DNA of 64,000 nt from an uncultured Gammaproteobacteria bacterium (GCA_964403585.1 CAYOFQ010000001.1:520630-584629), one strand, 5' to 3'. Positions 31,999 to 61,275 are shown, counted from the stretch's first letter. Numbers and translations are program-made. Notes: generated by a model from the letters alone, not told the origin.

Positions 31999-32037
31999 CC
32001 TCATTCTCAGCAAATACTCAATAACCACTGGTATAAT

Positions 32038-32718: not shown

Positions 32719-33722
32719 TGTTTCACTCGGCCCGTCTTAAACTAACCGGTTGGTATCTGCTTATCATCATGCTCGTGAGCGTCTCCTTCAGCATGATTAT
32801 CTATTCGATGATTTCCAGCGAGCTGGAACGATCATTAAAAATCCAGCGCTACCGGATATACAATCCCGGTTATGGTATTGCCATTCCGGTTCCCGCACCT
32901 GCTCCCGACCCGGATGTGCTTGATGACGCGCGTCAAAGACTTATCTGGCGGCTGGTAAATATTAATTCCATAATTCTGGTCCTTGCGGGAGCGGCCGGAT
33001 ATTTTTTGGCAGGAAGAACACTGCAACCGATCGAAGATATGCTGAAAGATCAAAATCGTTTTATAACCGATGCCTCCCATGAACTTCGAACACCACTCAC
33101 TTCCCTGAAAACATCCATCGAAGTAAATCTCCGCGATGAAAACTTGACTGCCGCTGAAGCCAGGGATGTTCTGCGCAGTAACCTCGAAGAAGTAAATAAT
33201 TTACAAACGTTAACTGACGGTCTCATAAATCTTGCGCAACATCCTAGTGTACACACGACTAAGATTACCGGGGAGGTCCAGTTGAAAGCTGCCGCTCAAG
33301 ATGCTGTGCGAAAAGTATTACCAATGGCAGAGCTAAAGGGAATTGAGATTATCAATGAAATAAGTGAACATACGTTTACCGGCGACCAGCGCAATATTGT
33401 CGAATTATTTGTTATTCTTTTGGATAACGCCATTAAATACAGTCCGGAAAAAACCTCCATTACGCTTTCTTCTACTACGATAGATGGCAAAATATTCATC
33501 AAAGTGCGGGATCAGGGAATTGGCATAGACGATCAGGATCTAGTGCACATCTTTGACCGTTTTTACCGCGCCGATCCGTCACGAACTAAATCTCAGGCAA
33601 CCGGATATGGACTTGGACTCTCCATTGCCAAAAAAATAGTTGACTCTCACAACGGAACAATTTCCGCAAAAAGTAAAATTGGTGAAGGAACAGAATTTAC
33701 TATAGTATTGCCAAATAAATAA
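32718..33722 (+). CDS. Membrane sensor histidine kinase, cognate to the 32038 regulator
   Basis: Two TM helices. H-box DASHELRTPLTSL. HATPase_c G-boxes. Overlaps the regulator stop. Confidence 0.9.
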   Translation: MFHSARLKLTGWYLLIIMLVSVSFSMIIYSMISSELERSLKIQRYRIYNPGYGIAIPVPAPAPDPDVLDDARQRLIWRLVNINSIILVLAGAAGYFLAGRTLQPIEDMLKDQNRFITDASHELRTPLTSLKTSIEVNLRDENLTAAEARDVLRSNLEEVNNLQTLTDGLINLAQHPSVHTTKITGEVQLKAAAQDAVRKVLPMAELKGIEIINEISEHTFTGDQRNIVELFVILLDNAIKYSPEKTSITLSSTTIDGKIFIKVRDQGIGIDDQDLVHIFDRFYRADPSRTKSQATGYGLGLSIAKKIVDSHNGTISAKSKIGEGTEFTIVLPNK

Positions 33723-36764: not shown

Positions 36765-36852
36765 AGTGATCCATATCACATACTCTCTTGATACGTTTGT
36801 TATCATAAACTTATGATAAATACATCCCTATGGAGGGGATGGGGAGGGAGAA

Positions 36853-37227
36853 ATGAAAAATAAATTTATTATCTGGGGATTCATGATTGCGTTTATTGGT
36901 CTGGGGCTGGGTTTCACCATTGGCAGAAGCGCCGATCCGTTTAAGATAGGACAAGTGGATACCCCTAAAAATGAAACTTCCATGAAGAATCCCCCGGACG
37001 AACAAAAAAACGACCAGGAAAACCGGAATACCGCAGGAGACTATGATCTGAATTTTATTAACGCAATGATTGCCCACCATGAAACAGCTATCGCTATGGC
37101 GACAGAAGCCAAAGAAAAAAGTCAGAAAGACGAAATAAAAAAAATGTCCGACGATATTATCAAAGCACAGTCCCGCGAAATAGAACACTTAAAGTTATGG
37201 AAGGAGGACTGGTATGGAGATCGATAA
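36853..37227 (+). CDS. DUF305 family protein (copper-locus associated)
   Basis: Signal/anchor plus DLNFINAMIAHHETAIAMA, the DUF305 HH motif. Confidence 0.7.
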   Translation: MKNKFIIWGFMIAFIGLGLGFTIGRSADPFKIGQVDTPKNETSMKNPPDEQKNDQENRNTAGDYDLNFINAMIAHHETAIAMATEAKEKSQKDEIKKMSDDIIKAQSREIEHLKLWKEDWYGDR

Positions 37228-37579
37228 AATTATTGTTATTTTAGCAGGCAGCTTATGGATACTTTTTATATATTCATACTTCCTCAACCATAAAGAAGAC
37301 GCAGTCGCAGTGATCGGCAGCAAAATTCATATCCGTGTCGATGGGGGATACAAACCGCAAACCATCTCGGTTAAAAAAGGTCAAAAAGTTCAGCTTGAGT
37401 TTGAGCGAACCGATCCCAGTTCTTGTCTGGAGGAGGTTGTGTTACCGGATTTCGGCAAGCGGCAGTTTCTCCCGTTAAATAAGAAAACAGAAATTGAGAT
37501 AGCGCCGAGCAAGACCGGTGAATATGAAATTTCTTGTGGTATGAATATGTTTCATGGAAAGATAGTTGTGGAGGACTAA
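37214..37579 (+). CDS. Membrane-anchored cupredoxin-like copper-binding protein
   Basis: N-terminal TM helix. Cys in SSCLEE. C-terminal C..M..H ligand set in ISCGMNMFHGKIVV. Confidence 0.65.
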   Translation: MEIDKIIVILAGSLWILFIYSYFLNHKEDAVAVIGSKIHIRVDGGYKPQTISVKKGQKVQLEFERTDPSSCLEEVVLPDFGKRQFLPLNKKTEIEIAPSKTGEYEISCGMNMFHGKIVVED

Positions 37580-37582
37580 TAA

Positions 37583-39805
37583 ATGAAAACGCAAACAATC
37601 CCCATCCTGGGGATGCACTGTGCATCATGTGCCGTGAGCATCGAACGGAAATTAAAAAAACTTCCCGGGATGCAAAGTGCTGCTGTAAACTATGCCTCAG
37701 AAAAAGCTGCGGTGGAATATGATCCTTTATCCTGTGATGAAGAAAAAATCGCCAGCACGGTCAAAAGTTTAGGATATACTGCGGTAATCGAAAGCCCGGT
37801 TGATACATCGGATGTTGTCGAAAAAGTAAAACGACAGGAACTTTCACAGCTAAAAACAAAATTAATCATCAGCGGAATACTTACAGTTTTCATTTTATTG
37901 GGAAGCTTTCCGCAAATATTCAGAATAACTCCAGCATTTTTGCAGGACCCGGTTTCACTGTTTGTGTTAGCTGTGCCGATTCAGTTTGTTATCGGATGGC
38001 AGTTTTATCGCAGTACCTATGCCTCATTAAAAAACCATACTGCCAATATGGATACATTAATCGCCTTTGGAACTACAGCGGCATTTCTATTTTCGACCGT
38101 CATGACTTTTTTCCCCGGAATAATGATGGAGTATGGTGTGGAAGGACATTATTTTGATGTTTCTTCACTGGTAATAACTTTGATTCTTTTGGGAAATTAT
38201 TTCGAATCGAATGCCAAGGGAAAAACGGGTCAGGCCATAAAAAAGTTACTTAATCTGCAGGCAAAAACAGCCAGGGTGATGAGAAACGGCAGCGAAATAG
38301 ATATTCCAATCGCACAGGTAATTATTGGTGACCAGATTATCGTACGGCCGGGGGATAAAATCCCTGTTGATGGCACAATTTCCGAAGGGCGAGGCACAAT
38401 TGATGAGTCAATGGTTACTGGCGAGTCATTACCAAAAGAAGTCTCCGCCGGAGAGGCAGTGGTTGGTGGCACGATCAATACGAATGGTTCATTTACCTTC
38501 GCGGCGACGAAAGTAGGCAGTCAAACGTTACTCTCCCAGATTATCGCACTGATCGAAAGTGCACAGAGTTCGAAAGCGCCCATGCAACGACTCGCCGACA
38601 CCATTTCATCCTACTTCGTTCCGATTGTACTGATGATTGCGGTCTTTACGTTTATGATTTGGTATGTAATCGGACCTGAACCACGATTATTATTCTCCGT
38701 GCTTAATGCGGTTGCTGTACTGGTAATCGCCTGTCCCTGCGCCATGGGATTGGCAACACCGACCGCAATTATGGTAGGCACTGGTAAAGGCGCTCAAAAC
38801 GGGATATTAATAAAAAATGCCGAAAAGCTTGAAACAGCGCACAAAGTCACCACCTTTATCTTTGACAAGACAGGCACATTAACAAAAGGTAAGCCGTCTG
38901 TATCTGAGGTAAAAATATATAATAATGCAGACGAAAATGAAGTACTAACCGCAGCGGCATCGCTAGAAAAAAACTCAACACATCCCCTGGCTGAAAGTAT
39001 TGTGCGCTATGCCCAATCAAAGAGCCTTGCATTGATAGCAGTCTCCGATACTCACTATATCCCGGGGATGGGGATCCAGGGTACAGTTGAGGATAAAGAA
39101 GTAGTTATTGGCGAAAAAATTATTCATCAAAAAAATATCGACTACTCTGCAGTTGTTTCGGATATAATCTTGCTGCAGTCACAAGCCCAAACAGTACTCC
39201 CGGTAGCAATTAATCAACAAATTGTTGGCTTAATCGCCATTTCGGACCCTGTAAAAGAAGAGTCATCCAAAGTAATTTCTCAGCTACACAAGTTAAAAAT
39301 AGAAGCTATCATGCTGACAGGTGATAACGAAAAAACAGCTGAGGCTATAGCCGGGAAAGTTGGTATAAAAAAGTTCATTGCCAATGTTCTCCCGCAGGAT
39401 AAAGAAAACGAAGTAAGAAAGCTGCAGCAACAAGGAAAAATTGTTGCCATGGTCGGGGACGGTATTAACGACGCACCTGCCCTGGCTGCTGCTGATATTG
39501 GTATCGCCATGGGTTCAGGAACAGATGTTGCCATCGAAACTTCCGACATCGTTTTGCTTGGAGGTGATATAAGTAAATTACCGCAGGCCATACGTTTGTC
39601 TAAACAGACAATGGCAACCATTAAACAGAACTTGTTCTGGGCCTTCGGGTATAACGTTATTTTAATACCGGTTGCTATGGGAGTACTGTATCCGGTGTGG
39701 GGTATGTTGCTTAATCCCGTTTTGGCATCAGTCGCAATGGCTCTAAGTTCAATTAGTGTTGTAATGAATTCGTTACGACTGAATTTAGTAAAATTAAACA
39801 AATAA
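37583..39805 (+). CDS. copA: Copper-translocating P1B-type ATPase
   Basis: HMA domain GMHCASCAVSIE. CPC motif ACPCAMGLATP. DKTGTLT and GDGINDAP motifs. 740 aa. Confidence 0.95.
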   Translation: MKTQTIPILGMHCASCAVSIERKLKKLPGMQSAAVNYASEKAAVEYDPLSCDEEKIASTVKSLGYTAVIESPVDTSDVVEKVKRQELSQLKTKLIISGILTVFILLGSFPQIFRITPAFLQDPVSLFVLAVPIQFVIGWQFYRSTYASLKNHTANMDTLIAFGTTAAFLFSTVMTFFPGIMMEYGVEGHYFDVSSLVITLILLGNYFESNAKGKTGQAIKKLLNLQAKTARVMRNGSEIDIPIAQVIIGDQIIVRPGDKIPVDGTISEGRGTIDESMVTGESLPKEVSAGEAVVGGTINTNGSFTFAATKVGSQTLLSQIIALIESAQSSKAPMQRLADTISSYFVPIVLMIAVFTFMIWYVIGPEPRLLFSVLNAVAVLVIACPCAMGLATPTAIMVGTGKGAQNGILIKNAEKLETAHKVTTFIFDKTGTLTKGKPSVSEVKIYNNADENEVLTAAASLEKNSTHPLAESIVRYAQSKSLALIAVSDTHYIPGMGIQGTVEDKEVVIGEKIIHQKNIDYSAVVSDIILLQSQAQTVLPVAINQQIVGLIAISDPVKEESSKVISQLHKLKIEAIMLTGDNEKTAEAIAGKVGIKKFIANVLPQDKENEVRKLQQQGKIVAMVGDGINDAPALAAADIGIAMGSGTDVAIETSDIVLLGGDISKLPQAIRLSKQTMATIKQNLFWAFGYNVILIPVAMGVLYPVWGMLLNPVLASVAMALSSISVVMNSLRLNLVKLNK

Positions 39806-39809
39806 AATT

Positions 39810-40865
39810 ATGAATGTTGATCTTATACCAATTATTGTCGCAGCTGTTACAACCGGAGGGTTGACTTGTTTTGCGGTCCAGGGAGGACTGTTAACATCTG
39901 CAATCGCTCAAATAAAAAAAAAGCAACCGACGGAAGAAAATCCCACGCCGGCATCCCAAGAGCAGTTAACGCAGAATGCGACCATCACATTTGTACTGGT
40001 CAAAATAATTGTGTACACAGTTCTCGGCGCATTACTGGGAGCGTTTGGATCGGTACTCTCGATTACTCCCCGTATGCAGGGGATTATTCAGTTACTTGCA
40101 GGCATCTATATGCTTGGCATAGCGTTAAACATGCTGAATGCGCATCCGGTATTCAGATATTTCCTCCTCCAGCCACCTAAATTTTTGCAACGTCTTATTC
40201 GCAAAACAGCCAAAGGGTCGAGTGAGTTCGCGACTCCGGCATTATTGGGATTAATGACGCTTTTTATTCCCTGTGGAACGACACTGGCCATGGAAGCATT
40301 GGCAATTGCCAGCGGGAATGCATTATCCGGAGCGTTGATAATGGGGACATTTGTGACATTCTCTTCGTGGATATTCATTGCCACCGGTTTTGCAGCAAAC
40401 TCAATTGAAAAGTATCTTGGGACTAATTTTGCCAGAATTACCGCAACATTGTTAATAGTGCTTGCTGTTCTTTCGATAAATGCTGCCGGTAATTTATTGG
40501 GATTCCCATACACTCTCAATTCGTTTGGCGGTCAGCAGACCGCAACCGAAACTAAATCTGAATCGGGAGCTGTTGCCGGGGCGACTAGTGAAAGCGGAAC
40601 AACGCAGAATGTCAAAATACTGGTGACGTCCAGCGGGTACCAGTCGGATACCACTACCTTAAAGAAAAATGTTCCGGTTGAACTGACCCTTGAATCAAAG
40701 AATGCATATAGTTGTGCCAGCGCCTTTTCAATTCCCAGCCTGAACAAAACGGTGATGTTACCGCCAACCGGAATCACCAAAATTCGTTTCACTCCACAAA
40801 AAAGTGGACGCTTGGTATACAGCTGTTCGATGGGAATGTATCGTGGGGATTTTTCTGTAATATAA
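39810..40865 (+). CDS. Polytopic membrane protein (DsbD_2/CcdA-like) fused to a C-terminal cupredoxin-like domain
   Basis: About 6 TM helices with LFIPCGTTL. C-terminal soluble domain ending YSCSMGMYRGDFSV, similar to the 37214 cupredoxin. Confidence 0.55.
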   Translation: MNVDLIPIIVAAVTTGGLTCFAVQGGLLTSAIAQIKKKQPTEENPTPASQEQLTQNATITFVLVKIIVYTVLGALLGAFGSVLSITPRMQGIIQLLAGIYMLGIALNMLNAHPVFRYFLLQPPKFLQRLIRKTAKGSSEFATPALLGLMTLFIPCGTTLAMEALAIASGNALSGALIMGTFVTFSSWIFIATGFAANSIEKYLGTNFARITATLLIVLAVLSINAAGNLLGFPYTLNSFGGQQTATETKSESGAVAGATSESGTTQNVKILVTSSGYQSDTTTLKKNVPVELTLESKNAYSCASAFSIPSLNKTVMLPPTGITKIRFTPQKSGRLVYSCSMGMYRGDFSVI

Positions 40866-40874
40866 GGAGGAAGT

Positions 40875-41084
40875 ATGAAAAAGACATTTAAAATTACCGG
40901 CATGCATTGTACCAGCTGTGCGATGTTAATCGACGGAGACCTTGAAGATACACATGGAGTACAGAGCGCAACCACTAATTACGCAAAGGCCGAAACAGAG
41001 ATAGACTTTAACGAAGCAATTATTTCAGATGAACAATTGGTCCAGGTTATTAAAAACCTTGGCTATCAGGCGGAGTACATATGA
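40875..41084 (+). CDS. copZ: Copper chaperone CopZ (HMA domain)
   Basis: 69 aa with GMHCTSCAMLIDGDLE. Confidence 0.85.
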   Translation: MKKTFKITGMHCTSCAMLIDGDLEDTHGVQSATTNYAKAETEIDFNEAIISDEQLVQVIKNLGYQAEYI

Positions 41085-41353
41085 CGAAAGACAAAGAGTT
41101 TAAAGACAAATTGTTACATAGATTAAAAATTGCGCGCGGGCATCTTACCAAAGTGATTGATATGGTTGAAAGCGATGAATATTGCCTGGATATCATTCAC
41201 CAGTCGCAGGCAATCCAGAAAGCGCTTAAGGAAGCCGACCATATAACACTTGAAAACCATTTGAACACGTGTGTTATCGATCAAATCAAAAAAGGAAAAA
41301 CCAAAAATTCAATCGAAGAAATCATGAAAGTAGTTAAAAAAAGCTATAATTAA
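41081..41353 (+). CDS. csoR: CsoR/RcnR-family metal-sensing transcriptional repressor
   Basis: 90 aa with LKIARGHLTKVIDMVE..YCLDIIHQSQAIQ..C (the C-H-C ligand pattern). 4-nt overlap with copZ. Confidence 0.8.
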   Translation: MTKDKEFKDKLLHRLKIARGHLTKVIDMVESDEYCLDIIHQSQAIQKALKEADHITLENHLNTCVIDQIKKGKTKNSIEEIMKVVKKSYN

Positions 41354-41369
41354 AGAGTATAATTTCTCT

Positions 41370-42131
41370 ATGTACGATCAGGTCTTTATAGAAAACAAGC
41401 AAACTAAAGTCGGCATTAATCCGCAGGGAGGGTATGTAACCTCCTGGAAAATTAATGACACGGATATCCTCTATCAGGGTAGCTCAATTCGTCGTACCGG
41501 CATTCCAATCCTTTTTCCCTACTATGGAAAAGCACATCAGACGCGCATGCATGGATTTGGGCGGGACTGCCAATGGGAAATCAGTACTCATGATCAGGCA
41601 TCGGTGACAATGGAACTGACACCGGACAATCTTACCGAAGAAGACCGCCGTGATTATCCATTCGAATTTTCCGCTCAAATTACTGTTAACCTTCTTAGTG
41701 ATTCCGAACTACTGTATACACTGGAAGTTACAAATAATGATTCCAAAGATCTGCCTATTTCACCGGGGATTCACCCGTATTGGTCGATTCCGCATCAGGA
41801 AAAGCCGGCCATTTCGATTAACGGAATTAATGGATTCAGCGCCGCATCAGTTGATTGGAACAATACCCCGCCTGATGATCCGTATGATTTTTCGGGTCAA
41901 GCCACCGTCAGTTTAGGAAATAAGACACTTGGTATCGAAGAGCTTTCATTACCACGAGTCGTAAAATTTTTACAGCTCTGGTCTCAAACTCCGGTTCGGG
42001 ATCCTGATTTTAATTTCCTTTGTGTCGAACCAATTTGCGGGCTGAATTACGGCATTGAAGAATCACCGTTATTAGTAAAACAAGGTGAAACGTGGCAAAT
42101 GAAGGTTAGGTTTTCTATTACTAGTGTGTAA
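41370..42131 (+). CDS. Aldose 1-epimerase family protein (mutarotase-like)
   Basis: 253 aa. Galactose-mutarotase-like beta-sandwich motifs (GIPILFPY..G..HGF.R.). Confidence 0.65.
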   Translation: MYDQVFIENKQTKVGINPQGGYVTSWKINDTDILYQGSSIRRTGIPILFPYYGKAHQTRMHGFGRDCQWEISTHDQASVTMELTPDNLTEEDRRDYPFEFSAQITVNLLSDSELLYTLEVTNNDSKDLPISPGIHPYWSIPHQEKPAISINGINGFSAASVDWNNTPPDDPYDFSGQATVSLGNKTLGIEELSLPRVVKFLQLWSQTPVRDPDFNFLCVEPICGLNYGIEESPLLVKQGETWQMKVRFSITSV

Positions 42132-43569
42132 CAACAGCATTGTATACCACTACTTCACCATAGTTATTCGCAGAACATAATCCGGACGCTTCAGTACTAC
42201 AATTGGATTGGGTATACGCTCCGGTTTTAAAATATGCACCCGAATACGCTCGTGTCAGTGTATAGGCCGGAGTAGCAGCTCCATTGTAATAAATCATCGT
42301 CTTCCCGCCACTCGCTACAAAGCGTACCGTAAATCGCTTTCCCAAAGTATAGTTTGAATCCAAAGTATATACATGCTGGTCTCCTCCCGGGGGATTTGTA
42401 CCAACATTGACATATAAATTCGGCAGTTCAAGACGAATAACAATCACATCATCATCGGCATCATGAATCTGTCCGGCCACTACGTGTTTTTTAGTCTGGG
42501 GTACGGCAGTAATTGCCTGATCTAATGTCATCGTGTGCGTACCACTGGTATTATTCCAGGCTGCATTAAAGGTTCCGTTACTGACCATCTCCCGCAATTC
42601 CGAGCGGGGATATTTTGATCCGGACGTATGCGCTCCATTAACTGGTGCTCTGAAAATTACTCCGTTACGCGAGGAATTAACTTTAAACCATTCATCTGTA
42701 TATGTCGCCAGCGCGGGTTGCTTAATTTCTGTTGGACTACTCCCGTTTAGGGGACTCGGCAGTGTAATTTTCCAATTCGTTAGATTTAATACCTGCGCAG
42801 GCAGGTTCCCTGTTCCGCCGGTTGGTATCGGGGTAGAAGTTGGTGTAGGTGAAGGAGATCTCGATGGATTCGTTGTTGCGGTTGGTGACGGTGTTACCGT
42901 TGCTGAAGGTGAAGGAGTTATTGTTGCCGACGAACTGGGAAAAACAGTATTCCCTTTAATTGCCAAAATATACATTGAATATGCGGTGACAGTACTATCG
43001 GATGCCGGCCCAAAATTTACAACACCTGCAGAATTGGAGTTCCTCTTCCATATGTCATATACACCAATCAGCCCCTGCTCATTCTTACGGAGTACAAATT
43101 GATTCAAATTACTGAAATCATCAGTAGTCATCTTAGTATAGTGAGACTGAATCCATGAAGGGACGCTTTGACCGGGTATCTTGCGATAATAAATATACAG
43201 ATCATGAGAACTCTGAAAATTAATAGACCAGGATAAGGTGGGTAGATCTTTTAATCCGGCATTTTCAGTTTGTATAAATGTAAGATTGCTCGGCATCGAT
43301 CCCGGAACCACAAAAAAAGTATAGCGCGAATCACCCGCGTACATTTGTGTGCCGGCTTGAACACACTGTTCAGTAAACGTTTTCCCGGGCGGGGGTTGTA
43401 TGGCATATCCGGTCGAACAGCTGACAGCGTACTGCAAATCAACGGAATTAATTTTAAGCAAACTTCGGGCCTGAGTAAAAACAACAAGGCTCAAAACAAA
43501 TACAGTGAGAATTACTATCAGATGGCTCCGCATACGCTCAGTATGACAGTTGTTAGTTCTCGCGGTCAA
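42121..43569 (-). CDS. Secreted protein: N-terminal 'YRKIPGQ' domain, PT/PS linker, C-terminal PL7-like (alginate lyase 2 family) polysaccharide lyase domain
   Basis: Signal peptide. PL7 signature trio RSELRE, QIH and YFKTGAYTQ. N-terminal domain IYYRKIPGQSVPSW..FVLRKNEQGLIGVYDIW. Confidence 0.8.
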   Translation of the reverse strand: MTARTNNCHTERMRSHLIVILTVFVLSLVVFTQARSLLKINSVDLQYAVSCSTGYAIQPPPGKTFTEQCVQAGTQMYAGDSRYTFFVVPGSMPSNLTFIQTENAGLKDLPTLSWSINFQSSHDLYIYYRKIPGQSVPSWIQSHYTKMTTDDFSNLNQFVLRKNEQGLIGVYDIWKRNSNSAGVVNFGPASDSTVTAYSMYILAIKGNTVFPSSSATITPSPSATVTPSPTATTNPSRSPSPTPTSTPIPTGGTGNLPAQVLNLTNWKITLPSPLNGSSPTEIKQPALATYTDEWFKVNSSRNGVIFRAPVNGAHTSGSKYPRSELREMVSNGTFNAAWNNTSGTHTMTLDQAITAVPQTKKHVVAGQIHDADDDVIVIRLELPNLYVNVGTNPPGGDQHVYTLDSNYTLGKRFTVRFVASGGKTMIYYNGAATPAYTLTRAYSGAYFKTGAYTQSNCSTEASGLCSANNYGEVVVYNAVVTH

Positions 43570-43918
43570 GTAATTTTTTTACCTTTCCGAGCAGATCATC
43601 CATTTCGAACGGTTTAGTAATAAAATCATCGGCACCGGCTTTGTGTGCCGAACCGTCAACGTCACGGCTTGCTGATATCATCAGAATCGGAATATCCTTG
43701 GTATGAGGACTGTTTTTTAGGAACGAGCATATTTCCCGTCCATCCTGACCGGACATCCAAATATCCAGAATCAGCAAATCGGGAAATTCCTTTTGCATCT
43801 TATATATTGTTTCGCCATCAACCGTCGTGGAAACCTCGTAGTCTTCCAGCTCGAGCATCATTTGCAGTGCATCAATAATAGCCGGATCGTCATCGGCGAT
43901 CATAATTTTCTTAGCCAT
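43553..43918 (-). CDS. Single-domain response regulator (CheY-like)
   Basis: 121 aa with the IADDD and LILDIWMSGQDG motifs and a distal Lys. Confidence 0.85.
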   Translation of the reverse strand: MAKKIMIADDDPAIIDALQMMLELEDYEVSTTVDGETIYKMQKEFPDLLILDIWMSGQDGREICSFLKNSPHTKDIPILMISASRDVDGSAHKAGADDFITKPFEMDDLLGKVKKLLDREN

Positions 43919-43920
43919 AC

Positions 43921-45441
43921 CTAATGCTTTGCTCCTTCCTGAGCGATACTATCCAGTGGCTGGTATGAAAAATATGCTGTGAGAGGTAACGAAAAGTAGA
44001 AAGTGGATCCTTTACCTTCAGTGCTCTCAACCCATATCTTTCCGCCCTGTCGCTTAATAATTTCGCTCGAAATATACAATCCCAATCCAAGGCCGGGGAA
44101 AGTCTCTTTGCGCGGACCGCTGACCCGGAAGAACTGCTCAAATACTTTGTCTTTATTGTCTTCAGGGATACCGACACCTGAATCACGTACACTCAGTGTT
44201 ACACACTCTGGTGCAATTTCTGTCGCAATTTCTGTCGCAACTTCGATAGTATCAGCATACGGAGAATATTTAATTGCATTGGACAGTAAATTTGTTATAA
44301 CCTGCCCGGTACGCTCCCGGTCTCCAAAAACAGTAACCGGCTTGTTCGAGCGTATTTTAATAGTATGTCGTTCAGTTGTATGTTGTAATTCCCCGACAAT
44401 CTCTTCAACTAATGCATGGAACATGTACTCTTCCTGCTCAAATTGTAATTTTCCTGCCTGAATCTTGGTCACATCGAGAAGATCACCAATCAAATTAGTC
44501 AATTTATTGACCTGTGCATCCATTTTTCCCAACAACTCAACCGCTTTGGTATCACCTTTGCGTTTGAAAATAGTTTGCAGCACCTGACCATATGCTTTAA
44601 TGCTCGTTACCGGAGTTTTCAATTCATGACTCGCGATTCCGAGAAACTCATCTTTTTTCCGTTCGAGTTCTTTCCGTTCGGTAATGTCTGAGGCAATCGC
44701 AACAATTGTTTGCAGCTTGCCATCCGCGTCCAAAAGTGGAGTTGCCGAAACATTAACATCAATTAAACTGCCGTCTTTTCGTTGTCGCACCAGATCACGC
44801 GTAAACGATTTACCTTGGTGCAACAGCGCCATCAGTTCCTGAAATTCCCAAAAGCGATCCTGTTGGGCTATCGGGAGTATCTTTCCGACAACTTCATCTT
44901 CCTTCCAGCCAAAAATCTCCTCCGAAACCTTATTCCACATTGTCACAATACCGTCGCCATTTAAGACATAGATAGCTAGTGGCGAAGATTGAATAATCGT
45001 TTCCAGCGCGGAATTTGATTCTCGTAAAATACGTTCTGATGCTTTATGTTCAGTAATATTTTGTAATGTAATTAGTACGGATAATTCACCCTTGAACATA
45101 ATCCGCAGGGAGACAATCTCCACGTCAATAATACTTCCATCAAGTCGAATCAGCCGTTCATAGATCACGTCGGTAAACTGTTTGCCCTTGCTGTAAATAG
45201 CTGCCATTCGTTCTTTAACTATTTCCACAAAGTCAGGGTGAATAAAACGCATTACCGATTGGCCGATGACATCTTTTTTACTTTTTGCGCCAATCAGTTT
45301 AAGTGCGTATTTGTTTGCGTAAACAAGCACACCGCGGGTATGAATTACAATCGGCAGTGGAGTGATGTTCAACAACCGTTCGTACGAGACGTGAGTATCC
45401 TGATTCGGAGATTCCGCGGAAGGTAAAGCTGCCTTTTTCAT
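43921..45441 (-). CDS. Cytoplasmic multi-PAS sensor histidine kinase
   Basis: PAS repeats. H-box IASHELKTPVTSI. HATPase_c. 506 aa. Confidence 0.85.
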   Translation of the reverse strand: MKKAALPSAESPNQDTHVSYERLLNITPLPIVIHTRGVLVYANKYALKLIGAKSKKDVIGQSVMRFIHPDFVEIVKERMAAIYSKGKQFTDVIYERLIRLDGSIIDVEIVSLRIMFKGELSVLITLQNITEHKASERILRESNSALETIIQSSPLAIYVLNGDGIVTMWNKVSEEIFGWKEDEVVGKILPIAQQDRFWEFQELMALLHQGKSFTRDLVRQRKDGSLIDVNVSATPLLDADGKLQTIVAIASDITERKELERKKDEFLGIASHELKTPVTSIKAYGQVLQTIFKRKGDTKAVELLGKMDAQVNKLTNLIGDLLDVTKIQAGKLQFEQEEYMFHALVEEIVGELQHTTERHTIKIRSNKPVTVFGDRERTGQVITNLLSNAIKYSPYADTIEVATEIATEIAPECVTLSVRDSGVGIPEDNKDKVFEQFFRVSGPRKETFPGLGLGLYISSEIIKRQGGKIWVESTEGKGSTFYFSLPLTAYFSYQPLDSIAQEGAKH

Positions 45442-45502
45442 AACGACTTAGATGATTCTAAACCCTTAGAGAAAATATATCAACAATGATATAACGTTTG
45501 GA

Positions 45503-46396
45503 TTATTTCTTTTCAGCTGCCATAAGCGGTATCAGAGCGGACTGTGCTGAGCCTTCAGGTACCAGTGTCAAATCACTCTGTCCTTCGGCGATTCGTTGAT
45601 ACTCTAAAATTTCATACATCGTCGAAAGCACATCGGGATCTTTGGCAATTTCATTCAACGTCGCTCCAACTACCTGCGGACGTACAGCTGCTGCCTTAGC
45701 AAATTCAATCGAAGCTTCCTGCTCTGCTTTACTGGCGATAATATTCACCTGGTTTACACCATCCTGTTCAATCGCCGAGGTTACCTGGCGTAACTGGTTA
45801 ACGACTTTCTCTTCAATCTGCCGGATCATCACATCGTCTCTAAAATGTACTTTACGAATATACACAGATCCTAATTTATATCCCCACTCGGAAGATTCAT
45901 CACTTACTTCCTGACGCACCACCCGGGACATCTCGTGTCGATTAATAAGCATTTCGGAAAGCGGCAAGTTGCTCAATGACTTAATTGTCGCGTTTTTAAC
46001 ATTCGCGGTCAGCGATCCCTGCGGGTCAACATTTTTAAAAATGTGCGCAATCGGATCCGAAATAAACATCTCGTACCAGACACCAATTCCCATTGGTGTT
46101 CCTTCTTCCGAGTTAACAGGAATACTGCGAATATATTGCTGATCCAAACTTAAACTGCGTGTGTAACAGCGCCCGAGCCAATTTACAAATAATGCCCTCC
46201 AGCCCAACACCGGCCAGAGCAAATGAAAGCCCGGCTCGTCCAGAGAACCGACAATATCTCCGAATAAAACATACACTTTAGCTTCGCGCTCATGGACAAT
46301 CGCATAGACACCGAGTAGGCGGCAGACAAACAAAATAAACCGCTCGGCGATAAAACAGACAAATATTGTTACAATTATTATCGGCAAATTAGTCAT
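45503..46396 (-). CDS. SPFH/band-7 domain membrane protein
   Basis: N-terminal TM helix plus SPFH core. 297 aa. Confidence 0.6.
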   Translation of the reverse strand: MTNLPIIIVTIFVCFIAERFILFVCRLLGVYAIVHEREAKVYVLFGDIVGSLDEPGFHLLWPVLGWRALFVNWLGRCYTRSLSLDQQYIRSIPVNSEEGTPMGIGVWYEMFISDPIAHIFKNVDPQGSLTANVKNATIKSLSNLPLSEMLINRHEMSRVVRQEVSDESSEWGYKLGSVYIRKVHFRDDVMIRQIEEKVVNQLRQVTSAIEQDGVNQVNIIASKAEQEASIEFAKAAAVRPQVVGATLNEIAKDPDVLSTMYEILEYQRIAEGQSDLTLVPEGSAQSALIPLMAAEKK

Positions 46397-47375
46397 GTTT
46401 GGCCTCTAAGAATATCCGTCGTGCTTTCGACAATAAGGCTAATTTTACATTACGAACATAGGCCGGCAGTGTTTTATTTCCGCTGTGTTTAATAGCCTGC
46501 AACTGAGCTGCAACCTGTTGCAGCATCTGTACTTCTGCCTGCGCTTTAAGCGTTTCAATTTGCACCGAGGTTTTCGATTGCACAATTTTCTGATCAGCCG
46601 AAGCCTGAGCCAAACTGATCTCTGATGATACATGATTATGTGCGGTATTGATCGCGGCCAGAGCGGACTCAACTTCGGCCGGTGGCTCAATGGCCGTAAT
46701 GAGCGCCGCATCCAGTGTGATACCGTAACGGGCAGCGGAAGATTTGCATTCTTCTTCCATATAGGTATTAAACTGGCCGAGATTCTTGCGCAGATCATTA
46801 ATGGATGTACCTAAGGACGCATGTAATGATGTCTGCGGACCTTCTTCTTTCTGTGGTGATTCAAAATTAGCCACGCGTTCACGCAGGATCGAGATGAAAT
46901 ATCCCATGACATGAGCGATCGGCGCAGTTACCCCAAAAAGATAACCATACAAATTGCGCTCGGAAACCGTATACCGCAGCTGTCCACGCAGTTTAATATT
47001 CAGCTGATCCTTGGTTACTGCTTCAAGTGCCGTATTATTATCATTGGCATAGGCATTTTCGGGGTCATATGCAATGTCGATCAGCTCTGTTGCAACAGAT
47101 ACTTTATGGATTTTTTCCCAGGGAAATTTAAAATACGGACCACCCGGTTTAATAACCTGAAGCTGCGGAAAACTGTAACGTGATCGTTCATCATCACGCA
47201 GAGAGTCGGCAAAATCGGGAATATCCAAAGTGGTAGCATTTTCCAGTCGCTGCGCACGGCCAAAAACAGTTTTGACGGCACGTTCGTTTTGCTGAACAAC
47301 ATAAAAGCCCTGCAGAACACAGCGGATAATGGCGTAGAAAACAATTCCTAAATAAATTCCGAAGAGGGCTTCCAT
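46389..47375 (-). CDS. SPFH/band-7 domain membrane protein (HflK/C-like partner)
   Basis: N-terminal TM helix. SPFH core followed by a coiled-coil tail. Overlaps its partner gene by 8 nt. Confidence 0.6.
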   Translation of the reverse strand: MEALFGIYLGIVFYAIIRCVLQGFYVVQQNERAVKTVFGRAQRLENATTLDIPDFADSLRDDERSRYSFPQLQVIKPGGPYFKFPWEKIHKVSVATELIDIAYDPENAYANDNNTALEAVTKDQLNIKLRGQLRYTVSERNLYGYLFGVTAPIAHVMGYFISILRERVANFESPQKEEGPQTSLHASLGTSINDLRKNLGQFNTYMEEECKSSAARYGITLDAALITAIEPPAEVESALAAINTAHNHVSSEISLAQASADQKIVQSKTSVQIETLKAQAEVQMLQQVAAQLQAIKHSGNKTLPAYVRNVKLALLSKARRIFLEAKHD

Positions 47376-47426
47376 ATCTACATTCTACTACCAAAAATAA
47401 AAAAACAATAGCATACTATTAAATAT

Positions 47427-50655: not shown

Positions 50656-53190
50656 TTGGGAATTGCTGCACTCGCGCACGGCATTAACATGTTCAATTTC
50701 CCGTATTACGAAAACGATGAGGGTGTGTACATGTCCCAGGCCTGGTCGTTTAGTAATGAGGGAAAATTAGCTCCGTACACCTATTGGTATGACCACGCGC
50801 CGCTTGGTTGGATACTTATTTCTTTGTGGACAACACTCACCGGCGGATTTTACACCTTCGGATTCTCCCTCAACTCAGGGAGGGTATTTATGCTTGTGCT
50901 CCACCTTATTTCATCCGTATATCTCTATTTAATAACGAAGAAACTTACCGGCAGCAAACTATCGGGGCTCGCGGCCATCCTTTTTTTCTCCCTTACCCCG
51001 CTCGGAATATATTTCCAGCGTCGTGTTTTGCTCGACAATATCATGATCATGTGGGTGCTCATTTCACTCTATTATCTCCTGGAGTATAAAAACAGGCTGC
51101 TGTACATACTCTTTAGTGCCGTTGCGTTAGCGTTTGCCATTCTGTCAAAAGAAAACGCCATTTTTTTTATTCCGTTGTTCTTCTACATTGTTTACTCGCA
51201 AGCACACAAACGCCACCGGCTTTTTGCGGTGACGCAATGGCTGTTAATAATCGGCTCAATTGTTTCGTTATATTTTGTCTACGCCCTGGTAAAAGGGGAG
51301 TTTTTTCCGGCCTACTCAACCTTAGGCGGGAACACTGAGCACGTTAGTTTACTCGAAACACTTAAATATCAATCCAGTCGAACCGGCGGGAGTATTCTAG
51401 ATACCGAAAACAGTTTGTTCTGGCAATACATGCGGCAATGGAGCGCCGAAGATTGGGTAATAATCTACGGCGGTGTTGCAGCCATGCTGTTTAATTTTCT
51501 GCTCGCTATTCGTAATTTTAATGCCCGGGTCGTAGCACTTTTTGCCGCCTCAATGTTCTTTTTCCTGATGCGCGGAGGGATTGTTATTGAATTCTATGTC
51601 ATTCCGCTGATCCCGTTATTGGCAGTTAACCTGGCGTATGCATTGACCGCTGTAGCCAATGTCTTTGCAAATATTGCACAGCGCGAACATTTGCACAATT
51701 CATTGCTTGGAGCCGCCACACTAGTCTTCAGTGTAGTTATGCTTTCTCAAGCCGGAACTGTTCGGGATAATCGCAATTTATATACATCCAATCAGGCACA
51801 ACCGCAGCGTGATGCCGTCGAGTGGATCAAGGCAAACCGTTCGCCCGACGAATTTATTGTCATCGATAACTATGGCTATTTGGATTTACGGAAAGATCCT
51901 AATAAGCAATTCAATAATGCCGACTGGTATTGGAAAATCGATACCGATAAAGACATTCTGCAAAAAAAGCTCGGTAACGATCCGAACAACATTGATTATT
52001 TAGCCGTGACGCCGCAAATGGAATTTGATATCAAACAAAGTGGGCTGAGTATTGTCGGTAAAGCACTGGGGGATTCCCGCCCTGTCACGCAGTTTTACCG
52101 CGACGGCTGGGGCGTAACTATTTGGGGAGTACATACACCGCAACGTAACTTAATGGCTGCGTGGGAAAGTTACAAACGCGATTTTATCAAAGACGGGCAG
52201 GTGATTGATCCCAGCGGAAAAATTACTACTTCGGAAGGTCAGGCATATGCTTTATTACGTGCAGTGTGGATGAAAGACCAGCCGGCTTTCTTTCAAATTC
52301 ATAAATGGACCAAGGATCATCTCTATCGGGATAACAATTTACTGCAATGGCGTTACAGCAAAGAAAATCCTGCCGCAAACGATCCCGGCTCAGCTACCGA
52401 TGCCGATCAGGATTACGCGCTTGCCCTCTTATTTGGATCGCGGGTCTGGAATGATTCTGGATTCCAAAAAGAAGCGGTTTCCATGATTCGGGCTATCTGG
52501 CAGTACGAAACCGCCGCACTTGGCAGCAAGGTCTACAGTCTTGCCGGAGAGTGGGGCGATAAACCTGATGAGCTGGTTGTAAATCCTTCCTATCTTTCAC
52601 CGTCTCATTACCGCATTTTTGCCCAGGTGGATCCCTCAAATGACTGGAAAAAGGTTGTCGATTCATCCTATGAGGTCTTAGACGGATGTACACACTCGCC
52701 GCTGGACGCCGGCCGCGGCGTTTTGCCGGCCGAATGGTGCGCTATTAACAAAGCAAGCGGAGTCTATAGTAAACCGTCTCAATCAGACTTTTCTACAGAA
52801 TACGGATACAATGCTTTCAGAGTACCGTGGCGGGTAATGCTCGATTATCAATGGAATAGGGATCCGCGTGCTCGCGATTATCTTCGCTCATTGGTATTCC
52901 TGTCCGATCAGTGGAACACGCATAAAAAGTTGTCCGCAGTATATACACATGACGGCCAGGTGCAAGAAGAATACGAATCAGCCGCTGCCTATGCCGGGAA
53001 TCTCGGTTATTTCATGCTTACAAGCCCCACCACTGCTAAAACAATCTATACTACCAAAATTGCTGCGAAGTTCTATGAGAACGAAAAAGAATCCTATTGG
53101 GAAGACCCGGACAATTATTACACCCAAAACATTACCTGGTTTGGTACCGCGTTATACTCCAATCAGCTGCCGAATTTATGGACCAAGTAA
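50656..53190 (+). CDS. Fusion protein: N-terminal GT-C fold membrane glycosyltransferase (PMT/ArnT-like) and C-terminal glycoside hydrolase family 8 domain
   Basis: Roughly 9-11 TM helices. The first-loop DE motif (YENDEGVYMSQAW) is typical of GT39/GT83. GH8 motifs TSEGQAYAL (catalytic Glu) and ATDADQDYALALLFG (GH8 signature) are present. Confidence 0.7.
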   Translation: MGIAALAHGINMFNFPYYENDEGVYMSQAWSFSNEGKLAPYTYWYDHAPLGWILISLWTTLTGGFYTFGFSLNSGRVFMLVLHLISSVYLYLITKKLTGSKLSGLAAILFFSLTPLGIYFQRRVLLDNIMIMWVLISLYYLLEYKNRLLYILFSAVALAFAILSKENAIFFIPLFFYIVYSQAHKRHRLFAVTQWLLIIGSIVSLYFVYALVKGEFFPAYSTLGGNTEHVSLLETLKYQSSRTGGSILDTENSLFWQYMRQWSAEDWVIIYGGVAAMLFNFLLAIRNFNARVVALFAASMFFFLMRGGIVIEFYVIPLIPLLAVNLAYALTAVANVFANIAQREHLHNSLLGAATLVFSVVMLSQAGTVRDNRNLYTSNQAQPQRDAVEWIKANRSPDEFIVIDNYGYLDLRKDPNKQFNNADWYWKIDTDKDILQKKLGNDPNNIDYLAVTPQMEFDIKQSGLSIVGKALGDSRPVTQFYRDGWGVTIWGVHTPQRNLMAAWESYKRDFIKDGQVIDPSGKITTSEGQAYALLRAVWMKDQPAFFQIHKWTKDHLYRDNNLLQWRYSKENPAANDPGSATDADQDYALALLFGSRVWNDSGFQKEAVSMIRAIWQYETAALGSKVYSLAGEWGDKPDELVVNPSYLSPSHYRIFAQVDPSNDWKKVVDSSYEVLDGCTHSPLDAGRGVLPAEWCAINKASGVYSKPSQSDFSTEYGYNAFRVPWRVMLDYQWNRDPRARDYLRSLVFLSDQWNTHKKLSAVYTHDGQVQEEYESAAAYAGNLGYFMLTSPTTAKTIYTTKIAAKFYENEKESYWEDPDNYYTQNITWFGTALYSNQLPNLWTK

Positions 53191-53264
53191 GCAGGTCTTG
53201 TATTGATCCATGCTTTTTTCTGTGATATATCTAATTAGCTTATACGTTATGGATAGATTTCAGC

Positions 53265-56108: not shown

Positions 56109-56112
56109 TTAA

Positions 56113-57677: not shown

Positions 57678-57678
57678 T

Positions 57679-61211: not shown

Positions 61212-61275
61212 CTACTATTTTTAATCATGTTGCTAACGCTTGTCAAGAATGTTCTCGTCCATGTACGATAATAGT

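What the first reader, a model, noticed from the sequence alone, without database searches (positions are those of the whole stretch)
42121..45441. PL7-like polysaccharide lyase gene lies directly downstream of a PAS histidine kinase and CheY-like regulator on the same strand
The 42121-43569 product carries the PL7 signature trio RSELRE, QIH and YFKTGAYTQ (alginate-lyase-2 / PL7 jelly roll) behind a signal peptide. On the minus strand the order is HK (45441-43921), RR (43918-43553), lyase (43569-42121). The RR and lyase overlap by 17 nt, which suggests one operon and signal-controlled secretion of a glycan-degrading enzyme. If this is a small-genome episymbiont, a secreted uronate-polysaccharide lyase could target host or biofilm matrix.
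Basis: partly seen in the sequence, partly recalled or inferred. Interest (0 to 1): 0.6.

Follow-up and report, generated by a model that had tools for sequence, protein, structure and literature searches.

The report
Secreted PL7 alginate lyase, incidental kinase neighbour
The gene is a genuine secreted PL7 alginate-type lyase in a small-genome Patescibacteria bacterium, but the sensor kinase and regulator just upstream look like an unrelated cassette next to it in this lineage, not its controller.

Summary
The C-terminal domain (aa 256-482) is PL7: Pfam PF08787 E=2.5e-42, and about 60% identity to the polyguluronate lyase ALY-1 (1UAI, E=1e-63). The Arg/Gln/His/Tyr tetrad is conserved. SecA places the organism in Microgenomates-type Patescibacteria, on a 1.57-Mb contig.

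The operon reading is not supported.
- The 17-nt overlap comes from taking the longest ORF. NCBI's call and the closest relatives start at ATG 43533, which leaves a 19-nt gap.
- Two close relatives with the same Band7-Band7-lyase-epimerase synteny lack the HK-RR.
- The lyase keeps a conserved promoter-like element (−35, 17-18 nt, CATACT, 6-7 nt, ATG) and no Shine-Dalgarno, like the first genes of other transcription units in this window.
- Orthologous HK-RR cassettes elsewhere precede unrelated genes.
- The kinase is cytoplasmic and the regulator has no output domain.

One Roizmanbacteria contig repeats the HK-RR-RR-PL7 order, so a link is not excluded. The lyase there also has its own promoter.

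The most novel item is the N-terminal module of about 170 aa. It is a confidently modelled β-sandwich with no Pfam or NCBIfam match, found in only 55 clusters among 1.84 billion representatives, and fused to many unrelated secreted enzymes.

The parts
42121..43533 (-). PL7 lyase gene, 470 aa from ATG 43533. The maximal ORF from TTG 43569 would be 482 aa; residue numbers in this report use the 482-aa frame.
   Evidence: ORF. NCBI call P0001 is 470 aa and 100% identical. Relatives start at the equivalent Met.
43468..43533 (-). Sec-type signal peptide or N-terminal anchor, MRSHLIVILTVFVLSLVVFTQA
   Evidence: Read directly from the sequence. KD19 hydrophobicity 2.3 at residues 1-23. No signal-peptide predictor was available.
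42925..43461 (-). N-terminal accessory module ('LYn', aa 37-215): CBM-like beta-sandwich of an undescribed family
   Evidence: No Pfam or NCBIfam hit. 55 clusters among 1.84e9 representatives. Fused to diverse secreted enzymes. AF2 pLDDT 91.8. Foldseek best match 6HPD accessory domain, E=2e-5, TM 0.62.
42805..42924 (-). Pro/Thr/Ser-rich linker (aa 216-255)
   Evidence: Translation; length varies among relatives in alignment A1.
42124..42804 (-). PL7 catalytic domain (aa 256-482) with R322, Q367, H369 and Y452
   Evidence: PF08787 E=2.5e-42. 1UAI E=1.2e-63 aligned over chain residues 6-223. The four residues are invariant in A1.
43540..43569 (-). Promoter-like element of the lyase: TTGACC-18-CATACT with TG upstream, ending 6 nt before the ATG. 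The -35 lies inside the last codons of the RR gene.
   Evidence: Scan hit. The same architecture is conserved in L002 and L092. Leaderless-style pattern is shared with other unit-first genes in the window.
43553..43918 (-). Stand-alone receiver-domain response regulator (121 aa, no output domain)
   Evidence: PF00072 only. All NCBIfam hits are below their cutoffs. Orthologues 63-69% identical follow HKs in L091, L095 and L096.
43921..45441 (-). Cytoplasmic PAS-PAS-HisKA-HATPase_c histidine kinase (506 aa). Its stop is 2 nt before the RR ATG.
   Evidence: Pfam. No hydrophobic segment, max KD19 = 1.27. Junction sequence.
45455..45483 (-). Promoter-like site upstream of the HK (TTGATA-17-TAGAAT)
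   Evidence: 10 of 12 matches. This is a consensus match only.
41370..42131 (+). Convergent aldose-1-epimerase-like gene whose 3' end overlaps the lyase 3' end by 11 nt. It is a conserved neighbour of the lyase in close relatives.
   Evidence: Pfam PF01263. Same arrangement in L002 and L092.
45503..47375 (-). Two SPFH/Band_7 genes. They are the conserved upstream neighbours of the lyase in relatives that lack the HK-RR.
   Evidence: Pfam. L002 82-85% identity, L092 84%, L093 75-80%.

Best explanation
Gene 42121-43533(-) encodes an exported, modular polysaccharide lyase. It has a Sec signal peptide, a CBM-like beta-sandwich module of about 170 aa from an undescribed family, a Pro/Thr/Ser linker, and a PL7 beta-jelly-roll catalytic domain. 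That domain cleaves polyuronate by beta-elimination and is most likely an endolytic alginate lyase preferring G-blocks or MG-blocks.

The host is a Microgenomates-type Patescibacteria bacterium. The lyase is the head of its own transcription unit. Its promoter has a -10 box 6 nt before the ATG, which would give a leaderless or near-leaderless mRNA.

The upstream PAS histidine kinase plus single-domain response regulator is a self-contained, translationally coupled two-gene cassette. It lies between the Band_7 pair and the lyase promoter only in this lineage, most parsimoniously by insertion. Its position next to the lyase is positional, not a dedicated regulatory link.

Shown here: family membership, catalytic residues, domain architecture, lack of synteny conservation, and the conserved promoter-like element. 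Inferred: substrate, secretion, leaderless transcription, and direction of the indel.
For: PL7 membership:
- PF08787 E=2.5e-42 over the full model.
- 1UAI polyguluronate lyase E=1.2e-63 and 5ZQI E=3.5e-60.
- R322, Q367, H369 and Y452 align to ALY-1 R72, Q117, H119 and Y195, counted on the alignment, and are invariant in A1.
- Motif definitions, and QIH as usually polyG/polyMG, come from PMC8618178.

Start codon: P0001 is 470 aa, and P0002 and P0003 start at the same Met.

Taxonomy: the nearest named SecA neighbours are Shapiro-, Chisholm-, Davies-, Beckwith- and Gottesmanbacteria.

Synteny:
- L002 (SecA 87% identical) and L092 have Band7-Band7-lyase-epimerase without the HK-RR.
- L004, L006, L024 and L093 also have no orthologous HK-RR adjacent.

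Own promoter:
- Window: TTGACC-18-CATACT-6-ATG. L002: TTTACT-17-CATACT-6-ATG. L092: TTTACT-17-CATACT-7-ATG.
- In the window, SD-like motifs occur in 11 of 41 genes. Most of these are operon-internal genes tightly coupled to the gene upstream.
- Unit-first genes, including the PL7 gene, have a -10 box 0-13 nt before the ATG.

HK-RR as an independent cassette:
- HK followed by RR is conserved in L091, L095, L096, L097 and L100.
- The gene downstream of the RR is DUF998, GH13 or another HK in the three contigs long enough to show it.
- The closest HK, P0178 at 62% identity, precedes a methyltransferase.
- The HK is cytoplasmic and the RR lacks an output domain.
Against: - No intrinsic terminator was predicted between the RR and the lyase, and the gap is only 19 nt. 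Read-through co-transcription from the HK promoter is therefore physically likely.
- An HK (core 52% identical) followed by two stand-alone RRs and a PL7 recurs on one strand in Roizmanbacteria L020. A different HK precedes the PL7 in the syntenic L039.
- An orthologous HK-RR is followed by another carbohydrate enzyme (GH13) in L095.
- The promoter scan is not significant on its own: 10 sites found against 15.1 expected in shuffles. The promoter argument rests on conservation in only three related sequences.
- The direction of the indel (gain or loss) is not proven.
- Substrate specificity rules based on QIH have known exceptions (PMC8618178).
Confidence: 0.7

Rival explanations
1. One reading: HK, RR and lyase form one operon. 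The PAS kinase senses a signal and, through the CheY-like regulator, controls expression or secretion of the lyase.
For: All three genes are on the same strand. The HK-RR gap is 2 nt and the RR-lyase gap is 19 nt, with no predicted terminator between them. The HK-RR-RR-PL7 order recurs in L020, and HK-PL7 in L039. An orthologous HK-RR precedes a GH13 enzyme in L095.
Against: - Close relatives L002 and L092 have the same locus without the HK-RR.
- The closest HK and HK-RR orthologues are not linked to PL7.
- The RR has no DNA-binding or other output domain, and the HK has no transmembrane or extracellular sensor to detect a polymer.
- The lyase lacks the SD that operon-internal genes of this window have. 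It carries a conserved -10/-35 instead.
- In L020 and L039 the PL7 gene sits behind a spacer of about 150-170 nt with its own TATAAT box.
- Among 79 PL7 loci, only those two syntenic Roizmanbacteria loci show same-strand adjacency. That is roughly what the background density of kinases predicts.
Confidence: 0.12
2. The lyase processes the organism's own exopolysaccharide. This would be an AlgL- or BcsZ-like role alongside a GT2 synthase, rather than attack on foreign alginate.
For: The window carries a PMT_2-GH8 fusion, a GT2 chitin/cellulose-synthase-like gene and a polysaccharide deacetylase at 50.6-56.1 kb. In the close relative L006, a LYn-PL7 paralogue (49% identical) lies inside the syntenic GT2-deacetylase cluster, next to a beta-helix protein carrying the same LYn module. 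In L004 the PL7 lies 2.5 kb from PMT_2, a GT2 cellulose synthase and GH8.
Against: In the window and in L002 and L092 the lyase is not in that cluster; in the window it is about 7 kb away and separated by unrelated genes. No uronate-forming enzymes, such as a UDP-sugar dehydrogenase, C5-epimerase or Alg8/Alg44-type synthase, were seen in the ORFs scanned. The closest characterised homologues are catabolic secreted lyases.
Confidence: 0.12
3. The enzyme is a PL7 lyase, but its natural substrate is another polyuronate (for example glucuronan or a host capsular or cell-wall polyuronate), not alginate.
For: PL7 includes glucuronan lyases; 7NDE matches at E=2.4e-8. The organism comes from a non-marine lineage group (groundwater, soil and sludge CPR labels), where G-rich alginate is not obviously abundant. 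The LYn module is structurally closest to accessory domains of a beta-glucuronidase and of a GH138 enzyme that targets pectin rhamnogalacturonan II. QIH-based rules have exceptions.
Against: About 60% identity over the whole catalytic domain to two biochemically named alginate / polyguluronate lyases, 1UAI and 5ZQI. That is far closer than to the glucuronan lyase.
Confidence: 0.2

Closest known systems
ALY-1 / AlyPG polyguluronate lyase of Corynebacterium sp. (PDB 1UAI), PL7
   Same: About 60% identical across the whole catalytic domain (E=1.2e-63). It has the same RSELRE, QIH and YFK.GAYTQ motifs, and the R72/Q117/H119/Y195 equivalents are conserved.
   Different: ALY-1 is a single-domain enzyme. 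The window protein adds a 170-aa N-terminal beta-sandwich module and a PT-rich linker, has Thr for Ala in the YFKAG motif, and comes from a Patescibacteria genome.
AlgAT5 (PDB 5ZQI) and AlyQ (PDB 5XNR), PL7 alginate lyases
   Same: Same PL7 catalytic fold family, at E=3.5e-60 and 3e-30.
   Different: The accessory module here is unrelated in sequence to known CBMs (no Pfam or NCBIfam hit). It is also fused to non-glycan enzymes such as phytase, cytochrome b5-like domains and metallophosphoesterases.
Glycan-sensing two-component regulation of CAZyme loci, such as Bacteroidetes hybrid two-component systems next to polysaccharide utilisation loci (from general knowledge)
   Same: A kinase and regulator are encoded directly upstream of a secreted glycan-degrading enzyme on the same strand.
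   Different: There is no periplasmic or extracellular sensor, no DNA-binding output, no transporter or downstream catabolic genes, and the linkage is not conserved in close relatives.
Single-domain (CheY/DivK-like) response regulators paired with soluble PAS kinases
   Same: A 121-aa receiver with an acidic pocket (DDD at residues 8-10), phospho-acceptor Asp52 and Lys102, read directly from the translation. It is translationally coupled to a cytoplasmic PAS kinase, and the HK-RR pair is conserved as a unit.
   Different: No chemotaxis or cell-cycle partner genes are nearby. The best NCBIfam single-domain model, DVU0259_DivK, scores 73 bits against a cutoff of 160.
AlgL (PL5) in alginate biosynthesis operons and BcsZ (GH8) in cellulose synthase operons (from general knowledge)
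   Same: In relatives L006 and L004, a LYn-PL7 gene is embedded in or beside a GT2 synthase / deacetylase / GH8 cluster.
   Different: In the window the lyase lies outside that cluster. The lyase family also differs: PL7, not PL5.

Membership tests
Polysaccharide lyase family 7 (Pfam Alginate_lyase2, PF08787) | Profile match above the curated threshold, covering the whole domain | tested here: met
   145.7 bits against a cutoff of 29.7, E=2.5e-42, model positions 1-225 of 225.
Polysaccharide lyase family 7 (Pfam Alginate_lyase2, PF08787) | Three conserved regions: SA3 RXEXR, SA5 QXH and SA4 YXKAGXYXQ (as defined in PMC8618178) | tested here: met
   RSELR (322-326), QIH (367-369) and YFKTGAYTQ (446-454). 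The only deviation is Thr for Ala in SA4, which P0002 and P0008 share.
Polysaccharide lyase family 7 (Pfam Alginate_lyase2, PF08787) | Catalytic Arg/Gln/His/Tyr at positions equivalent to a solved PL7 enzyme | tested here: met
   R322, Q367, H369 and Y452 align with 1UAI residues 72, 117, 119 and 195, counted on the alignment. All four are invariant in 12 relatives. That these four are the catalytic residues of ALY-1 is recalled from the literature, not checked here.
Polysaccharide lyase family 7 (Pfam Alginate_lyase2, PF08787) | Beta-jelly-roll fold of the catalytic domain | not tested
   No model was built for aa 256-482. The fold is implied by the near gap-free alignment at about 60% identity to crystal structure 1UAI over chain residues 6-223.
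Polysaccharide lyase family 7 (Pfam Alginate_lyase2, PF08787) | Beta-elimination activity on alginate or another polyuronate | not testable with these tools
   Requires an enzyme assay.
   121 aa with PF00072 only. All NCBIfam transcription-factor models fall far below their cutoffs and match only the receiver part.
   No hydrophobic segment, max KD19 = 1.27. The architecture is PAS-PAS-HisKA-HATPase_c.
   Absent in L002 and L092, which have the same locus, and in L004, L006, L024 and L093. Present only in L020 and L039 out of 79 PL7 loci. The HK-side loci show no PL7.
   The overlap depends on TTG 43569. ATG 43533 is supported by the NCBI call and by homologues, giving a 19-nt gap with no SD.
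   There is no terminator between the genes, but there is a conserved internal promoter-like element. This needs RNA data.
Alginate utilisation locus (lyase plus transporter, oligoalginate lyase, KdgF, DEH reductase, KdgK, Eda) | Downstream uptake and catabolic genes clustered with the lyase | tested here: inconclusive
   None were found among roughly 45 larger ORFs of the 64-kb window scanned with Pfam. Small ORFs and the rest of the genome were not examined.
Carbohydrate-binding module (for the N-terminal LYn module) | Beta-sandwich fold appended to secreted enzymes | tested here: met
   AF2 pLDDT 91.8, mostly beta-strand. Best matches are accessory domains of GH2 6HPD and GH138 6HZF. Fusion partners are listed.
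Carbohydrate-binding module (for the N-terminal LYn module) | Membership of a described CBM or Pfam family, and demonstrated glycan binding | tested here: not met
   No Pfam or NCBIfam match. Sequence identity to the structural matches is about 10%. Binding itself cannot be tested here.

The most novel reading that the evidence does not exclude
The N-terminal 'LYn' module may be a new binding or anchoring domain family specific to one Patescibacteria lineage. In this reading it tethers a whole set of secreted enzymes (PL7 and PL5 lyases, beta-helix proteins, GH5/31/39/88, phytases, metallophosphoesterases, cytochrome b5-like proteins) to one common anionic surface polymer. That polymer could be on the host cell or on the episymbiont's own envelope. 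The lyase would then be part of a surface-displayed toolkit for working on the host or biofilm matrix.

A weaker add-on is that the PAS-HK / single-domain RR cassette modulates neighbouring carbohydrate enzymes (PL7 here and in L020, GH13 in L095) by a non-transcriptional route.
Probability: 0.2. Interest if true: 0.55.

Novelty: new member of a known kind. Interest (0 to 1): 0.27.

Why it matters
The enzyme assignment itself is routine. PL7 lyases are a large family, and surveys already report polysaccharide lyases in most CPR genomes (80 of 135 MAGs in PMC10031880).

The result matters in two ways:
- It warns against reading operons from longest-ORF overlaps in genomes that use leaderless-style starts.
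- It points to an uncharacterised module that marks a family of secreted proteins in a Microgenomates-type lineage. If that module binds a host or matrix polymer, it would be a handle on how these uncultured episymbionts attach enzymes to their surroundings.

Tried and rejected
- **Exact-sequence look-up of the 470-aa lyase (P0001):** nothing on record. The source contig was reached only through the RR, as a 3.3-kb Logan contig.
- **Cluster members:** no organism names. A paper search for SRP192515, SRR8893623 and GCA_964535655 found nothing.
- **Rfam scan of the window:** no RNA families, so no rRNA for taxonomy. SecA was used instead.
- **Is o207 (57054-57677) a remnant of the beta-helix or PL7 genes found at that position in L006?** No similarity; it is a multi-pass membrane protein.
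- **Is the L093 RR/HK next to Band_7 orthologous to the window's cassette?** Rejected: 25-29% identity and reversed gene order.
- **Significance of HK adjacency.** Excluding the window (which was ascertained by this feature), only the two syntenic Roizmanbacteria loci among 79 PL7 loci show it, which counts as one independent event. The background is about 7 HK hits in about 900 kb of fetched loci. This is not distinguishable from chance.
- **CAZyme downstream of HK-RR orthologues:** 1 of about 4 informative HK-ascertained contigs (GH13 in L095), not significant.
- **Literature on PL7 in Patescibacteria or Microgenomates:** no specific treatment found.
- **NCBIfam:** no equivalog-level name for the lyase, LYn, HK, RR, epimerase or Band_7 genes.

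Full report
**1. Observation**

- 42121-43569, 482 aa, TTG start
- 43553-43918, 121 aa
- 43921-45441, 506 aa

The motifs RSELRE, QIH and YFKTGAYTQ are present at residues 322-327, 367-369 and 446-454. Pfam gives Alginate_lyase2 (PF08787) at E=2.5e-42 over residues 261-482, covering the whole model. The 121-aa protein is Response_reg only. The 506-aa protein has two PAS domains plus HisKA and HATPase_c.

Against solved structures, the best matches are the polyguluronate lyase ALY-1 (1UAI, E=1.2e-63, aligned over chain residues 6-223) and AlgAT5 (5ZQI, E=3.5e-60). Weaker matches follow to PA1167, A1-II' and a glucuronan lyase. Counting along the 1UAI alignment:
- R322 aligns with R72
- Q367 with Q117
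- H369 with H119
- Y452 with Y195

All four are invariant in an alignment of 12 relatives. The review PMC8618178 defines the three PL7 signature regions. It notes that QIH enzymes are usually polyG- or polyMG-specific, with exceptions.

**2. The start codon and the '17-nt overlap'**

The overlap exists only for the longest ORF.
- The NCBI gene call for the identical protein is 470 aa (P0001).
- The two closest relatives begin at the Met equivalent to residue 13 (MRQHL…, MRTHV…).
- That Met opens a textbook signal peptide, MRSHLIVILTVFVLSLVVFTQA (hydrophobicity 2.3).

With ATG 43533, the RR stop codon and the lyase start are 19 nt apart. By contrast, the HK and RR are tightly coupled: there are 2 nt between stop and start, with a GGAAGGAG stretch upstream.

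**3. Organism**

The window has no rRNA and is not a GTDB species representative. The identical proteins lie on a 1.57-Mb NCBI contig. SecA has 84-87% identical unnamed relatives. One of these lies on the same contig as locus L002. The nearest named neighbours, at about 54% identity, are Shapiro-, Chisholm-, Davies-, Beckwith- and Gottesmanbacteria, CPR3 and 'Microgenomates'.

The closest PL7 catalytic domains (60-70% identity) also come largely from Patescibacteria. Chloroflexi, actinomycetes and Chitinophagaceae follow. Polysaccharide lyases are already reported as widespread in CPR MAGs (80 of 135 in PMC10031880). I found no paper that deals specifically with PL7 in these lineages.

**4. 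Is the HK-RR linked to the lyase?**

*Evidence from the lyase side*
- L002 is the close relative (SecA 87%, lyase 67%, Band_7 proteins 82-85%). Its gene order is YHYH / Band7a-Band7b-lyase / convergent epimerase / beta-CASP, the same as the window. There is no HK-RR there: a 94-nt spacer separates Band7b from the lyase.
- L092 (lyase 64%) likewise has Band7b, a small opposite-strand ORF, the lyase and the epimerase, with no HK-RR.
- Relative to L002, the window differs by two indels in otherwise collinear DNA: a copper-resistance cluster (about 36.8-41.35 kb) and the HK-RR segment.
- More distant relatives that carry the module (L004, L006/7, L024, L093) have no orthologous HK-RR beside the lyase. 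L093 has a different RR/HK, 25-29% identical and in reversed order, diverging from the Band_7 pair.
- Among 79 genomic PL7 loci, a same-strand upstream HK occurs only in two syntenic Roizmanbacteria contigs:
  - L020 has a PAS-GAF-PAS HK whose core is 52% identical to ours, then two stand-alone RRs, then PL7.
  - L039 has a membrane HK 33% identical to ours, then PL7.
- That is one independent event. Given the background kinase density in these loci, it cannot be told apart from chance.

*Evidence from the kinase side*
- The closest HK (P0178, 62%) is followed by a methyltransferase and an oxidoreductase.
- HK followed by RR is conserved as a pair in L091, L095, L096, L097 and L100, with RRs up to 69% identical.
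- The gene after the RR varies: DUF998, a GH13 alpha-amylase-family enzyme, or another PAS kinase. None is a PL7 or carries the lyase's N-terminal module.

**5. Transcription signals**

The window, L002 and L092 share the same architecture just upstream of the lyase ATG:
- a −35-like hexamer (TTGACC or TTTACT)
- a 17-18 nt spacer
- CATACT, preceded by TG in the window and L002
- 6-7 nt to the ATG, with no Shine-Dalgarno

In the window the −35 lies within the last codons of the RR. Similarity to L002 extends about 50 nt upstream of the ATG (…AAAANATTACTT…), which places the right-hand breakpoint of the indel inside the RR's C-terminal tail.

A survey of 41 genes in the window shows two classes:
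- SD-like motifs occur in 11 genes. Most of these are operon-internal genes tightly coupled to the gene upstream (AtpA, AtpG, AtpD, HK2, HMA, CsoR, CopA, Band7b, RR).
- Genes at the head of units have a −10-like box 0-13 nt before the ATG (Band7a TAGAAT-6, epimerase TATAAT-6, YHYH CATACT-9, HK3 TACACT-7, RR2 TATAAT-0).

The lyase belongs to the second class. Even in L020 and L039, the PL7 gene sits behind a spacer of about 150-170 nt with its own TATAAT box (TTGCCT-17-TGgTATAAT-6-ATG in L020).

These are consensus matches supported by conservation, not measured transcription starts. The raw promoter scan is not enriched over shuffles. No terminator separates the RR from the lyase, so some read-through is likely.

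**6. Mechanistic plausibility of control**

The HK has no hydrophobic segment (max KD19 = 1.27), so it is a cytoplasmic sensor. It cannot see an extracellular polymer directly. The RR is a bare receiver with an intact acidic pocket, Asp52 and Lys102 (read from the translation). It has no output domain. Any effect on the lyase would need an unknown partner.

**7. The N-terminal module**

Residues 37-215 match no Pfam or NCBIfam model. An exhaustive HMMER search of 1.84 billion representatives found only 55 clusters. In these the module sits either just after a signal peptide or at the C-terminus.

Its fusion partners are varied:
- cytochrome b5-like domains (7)
- phytases (3)
- beta-helix proteins (3)
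- metallophosphoesterases (3)
- single cases of GH5, a PL5 alginate lyase, GH31, GH88, GH39 and DUF4832/4874

AlphaFold2 with a 47-sequence alignment gives a confident beta-sandwich (pLDDT 91.8, pTM 0.86). The only significant PDB match is an accessory domain of the GH2 beta-glucuronidase 6HPD (E=2e-5, TM 0.62, 10% identity). The GH138 enzyme 6HZF, which targets pectin rhamnogalacturonan II, comes next.

Conserved positions include two Cys, several Arg, and Tyr/Trp residues. The window itself holds two further copies, in ORF 2831-3610(+) and ORF 12253-14022(−). L002 and L006 have extra copies too.

Because the partners include non-glycan enzymes, a generic anchoring or targeting role seems more likely than alginate-specific binding. 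That is inference.

**8. Alternative context**

The window carries an exopolysaccharide-type cluster at 50.6-58.4 kb: a PMT_2-GH8 fusion, a GT2 chitin/cellulose-synthase-like gene, a polysaccharide deacetylase and an S9 hydrolase. In L006 the cluster is syntenic (GT2 82%, GH57 88%). There, a beta-helix protein with the LYn module and a LYn-PL7 paralogue (49%) lie inside it. In L004 the PL7 is beside PMT_2, a GT2 cellulose synthase and GH8.

This keeps alive a role in trimming a self-made polymer. In the window, L002 and L092, however, the lyase is not in that cluster.

**9. Verdict**

The gene is a new member of a well-known enzyme family, in a lineage where such enzymes are common. The operon and regulation reading rests on a start-codon artefact and on an adjacency that close relatives do not share. 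It is unlikely (about 0.1) but not excluded.

The undescribed N-terminal module and the leaderless-style gene starts are the more interesting by-products. Overall interest is low to moderate.

Noticed in passing
window 2831-3610 (+) and 12253-14022 (-); also L002 13865-14281 (-) and L006 7520-7966 (+): There are further copies of the lyase's N-terminal module (46-53% identical) in other proteins that have no Pfam match, or in a beta-helix protein. The window alone has three proteins carrying this module, so it is a lineage-expanded family of presumably secreted proteins.
   Followed up: partly
window-wide, e.g. 47376-47426, 41354-41369, 32026-32037, 43534-43545: Gene starts fall into two classes. 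SD-like motifs occur in 11 of 41 genes, mostly operon-internal ones. First genes of units have a -10-like box 0-13 nt before the ATG and no SD, which suggests widespread leaderless or very short-leader mRNAs in this Patescibacteria genome.
   Followed up: partly
window ~36800-41353: A copper-resistance cluster (small HMA proteins, CopA P-type ATPase, DsbD-cupredoxin fusion, CsoR-type repressor) lies between the beta-CASP gene and the epimerase. It is absent at that position in the close relative L002, so it is a second lineage-specific indel next to the lyase locus.
   Followed up: partly
window 50656-58374 and 61240-62709; L006 965-16252: Exopolysaccharide-type cluster: a PMT_2-GH8 fusion protein (844 aa), a GT2 chitin/cellulose-synthase-like gene, a polysaccharide deacetylase and an S9 hydrolase, with GH57 downstream. 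It is syntenic with L006, where a beta-helix protein and a PL7 paralogue are inserted between the 313-aa gene and the S9 hydrolase.
   Followed up: partly
L095 1586-3615: The RR most similar to the window's (69% identity) is followed 48 nt downstream, on the same strand, by a cytoplasmic GH13 alpha-amylase-family enzyme. That is another carbohydrate-active gene after this HK-RR cassette. The sample is too small to call it a pattern.
   Followed up: partly
L008 / L002 (CAZHTP010000002.1) and other 'MAG TPA_asm: uncultured Gammaproteobacteria' records: The record title says Gammaproteobacteria. The contig carries a SecA 87% identical to the window's, whose nearest named relatives are all Microgenomates-type CPR, so these taxonomic labels look unreliable.
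   Followed up: no
window 30013-31626, 32038-33722, 43553-45441: There are three histidine kinases and two response regulators within 64 kb of a genome of roughly 1.6 Mb. That is a high local density of two-component genes, and it raises the chance of incidental adjacency to any given gene.
   Followed up: no
one search hit list (e.g. P0037, P0045, P0053, P0059, P0082, P0118): Many close PL7 catalytic domains are fused to dockerin (PF00404), including one from a genome labelled Anaerolineae. Others are fused to LysM, F5/8 type C or LamG domains. The same catalytic domain is recombined with many different targeting modules.
   Followed up: no
L039 5535-5592: An imperfect inverted repeat of about 18 nt (ATTCCTGCGTAAGCCAGG … CCTGGCGTAAGCAGGAAT) lies between the HK and the PL7 gene in the Roizmanbacteria contig, upstream of the PL7 TATAAT box. 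It could be a terminator or an operator.
   Followed up: no
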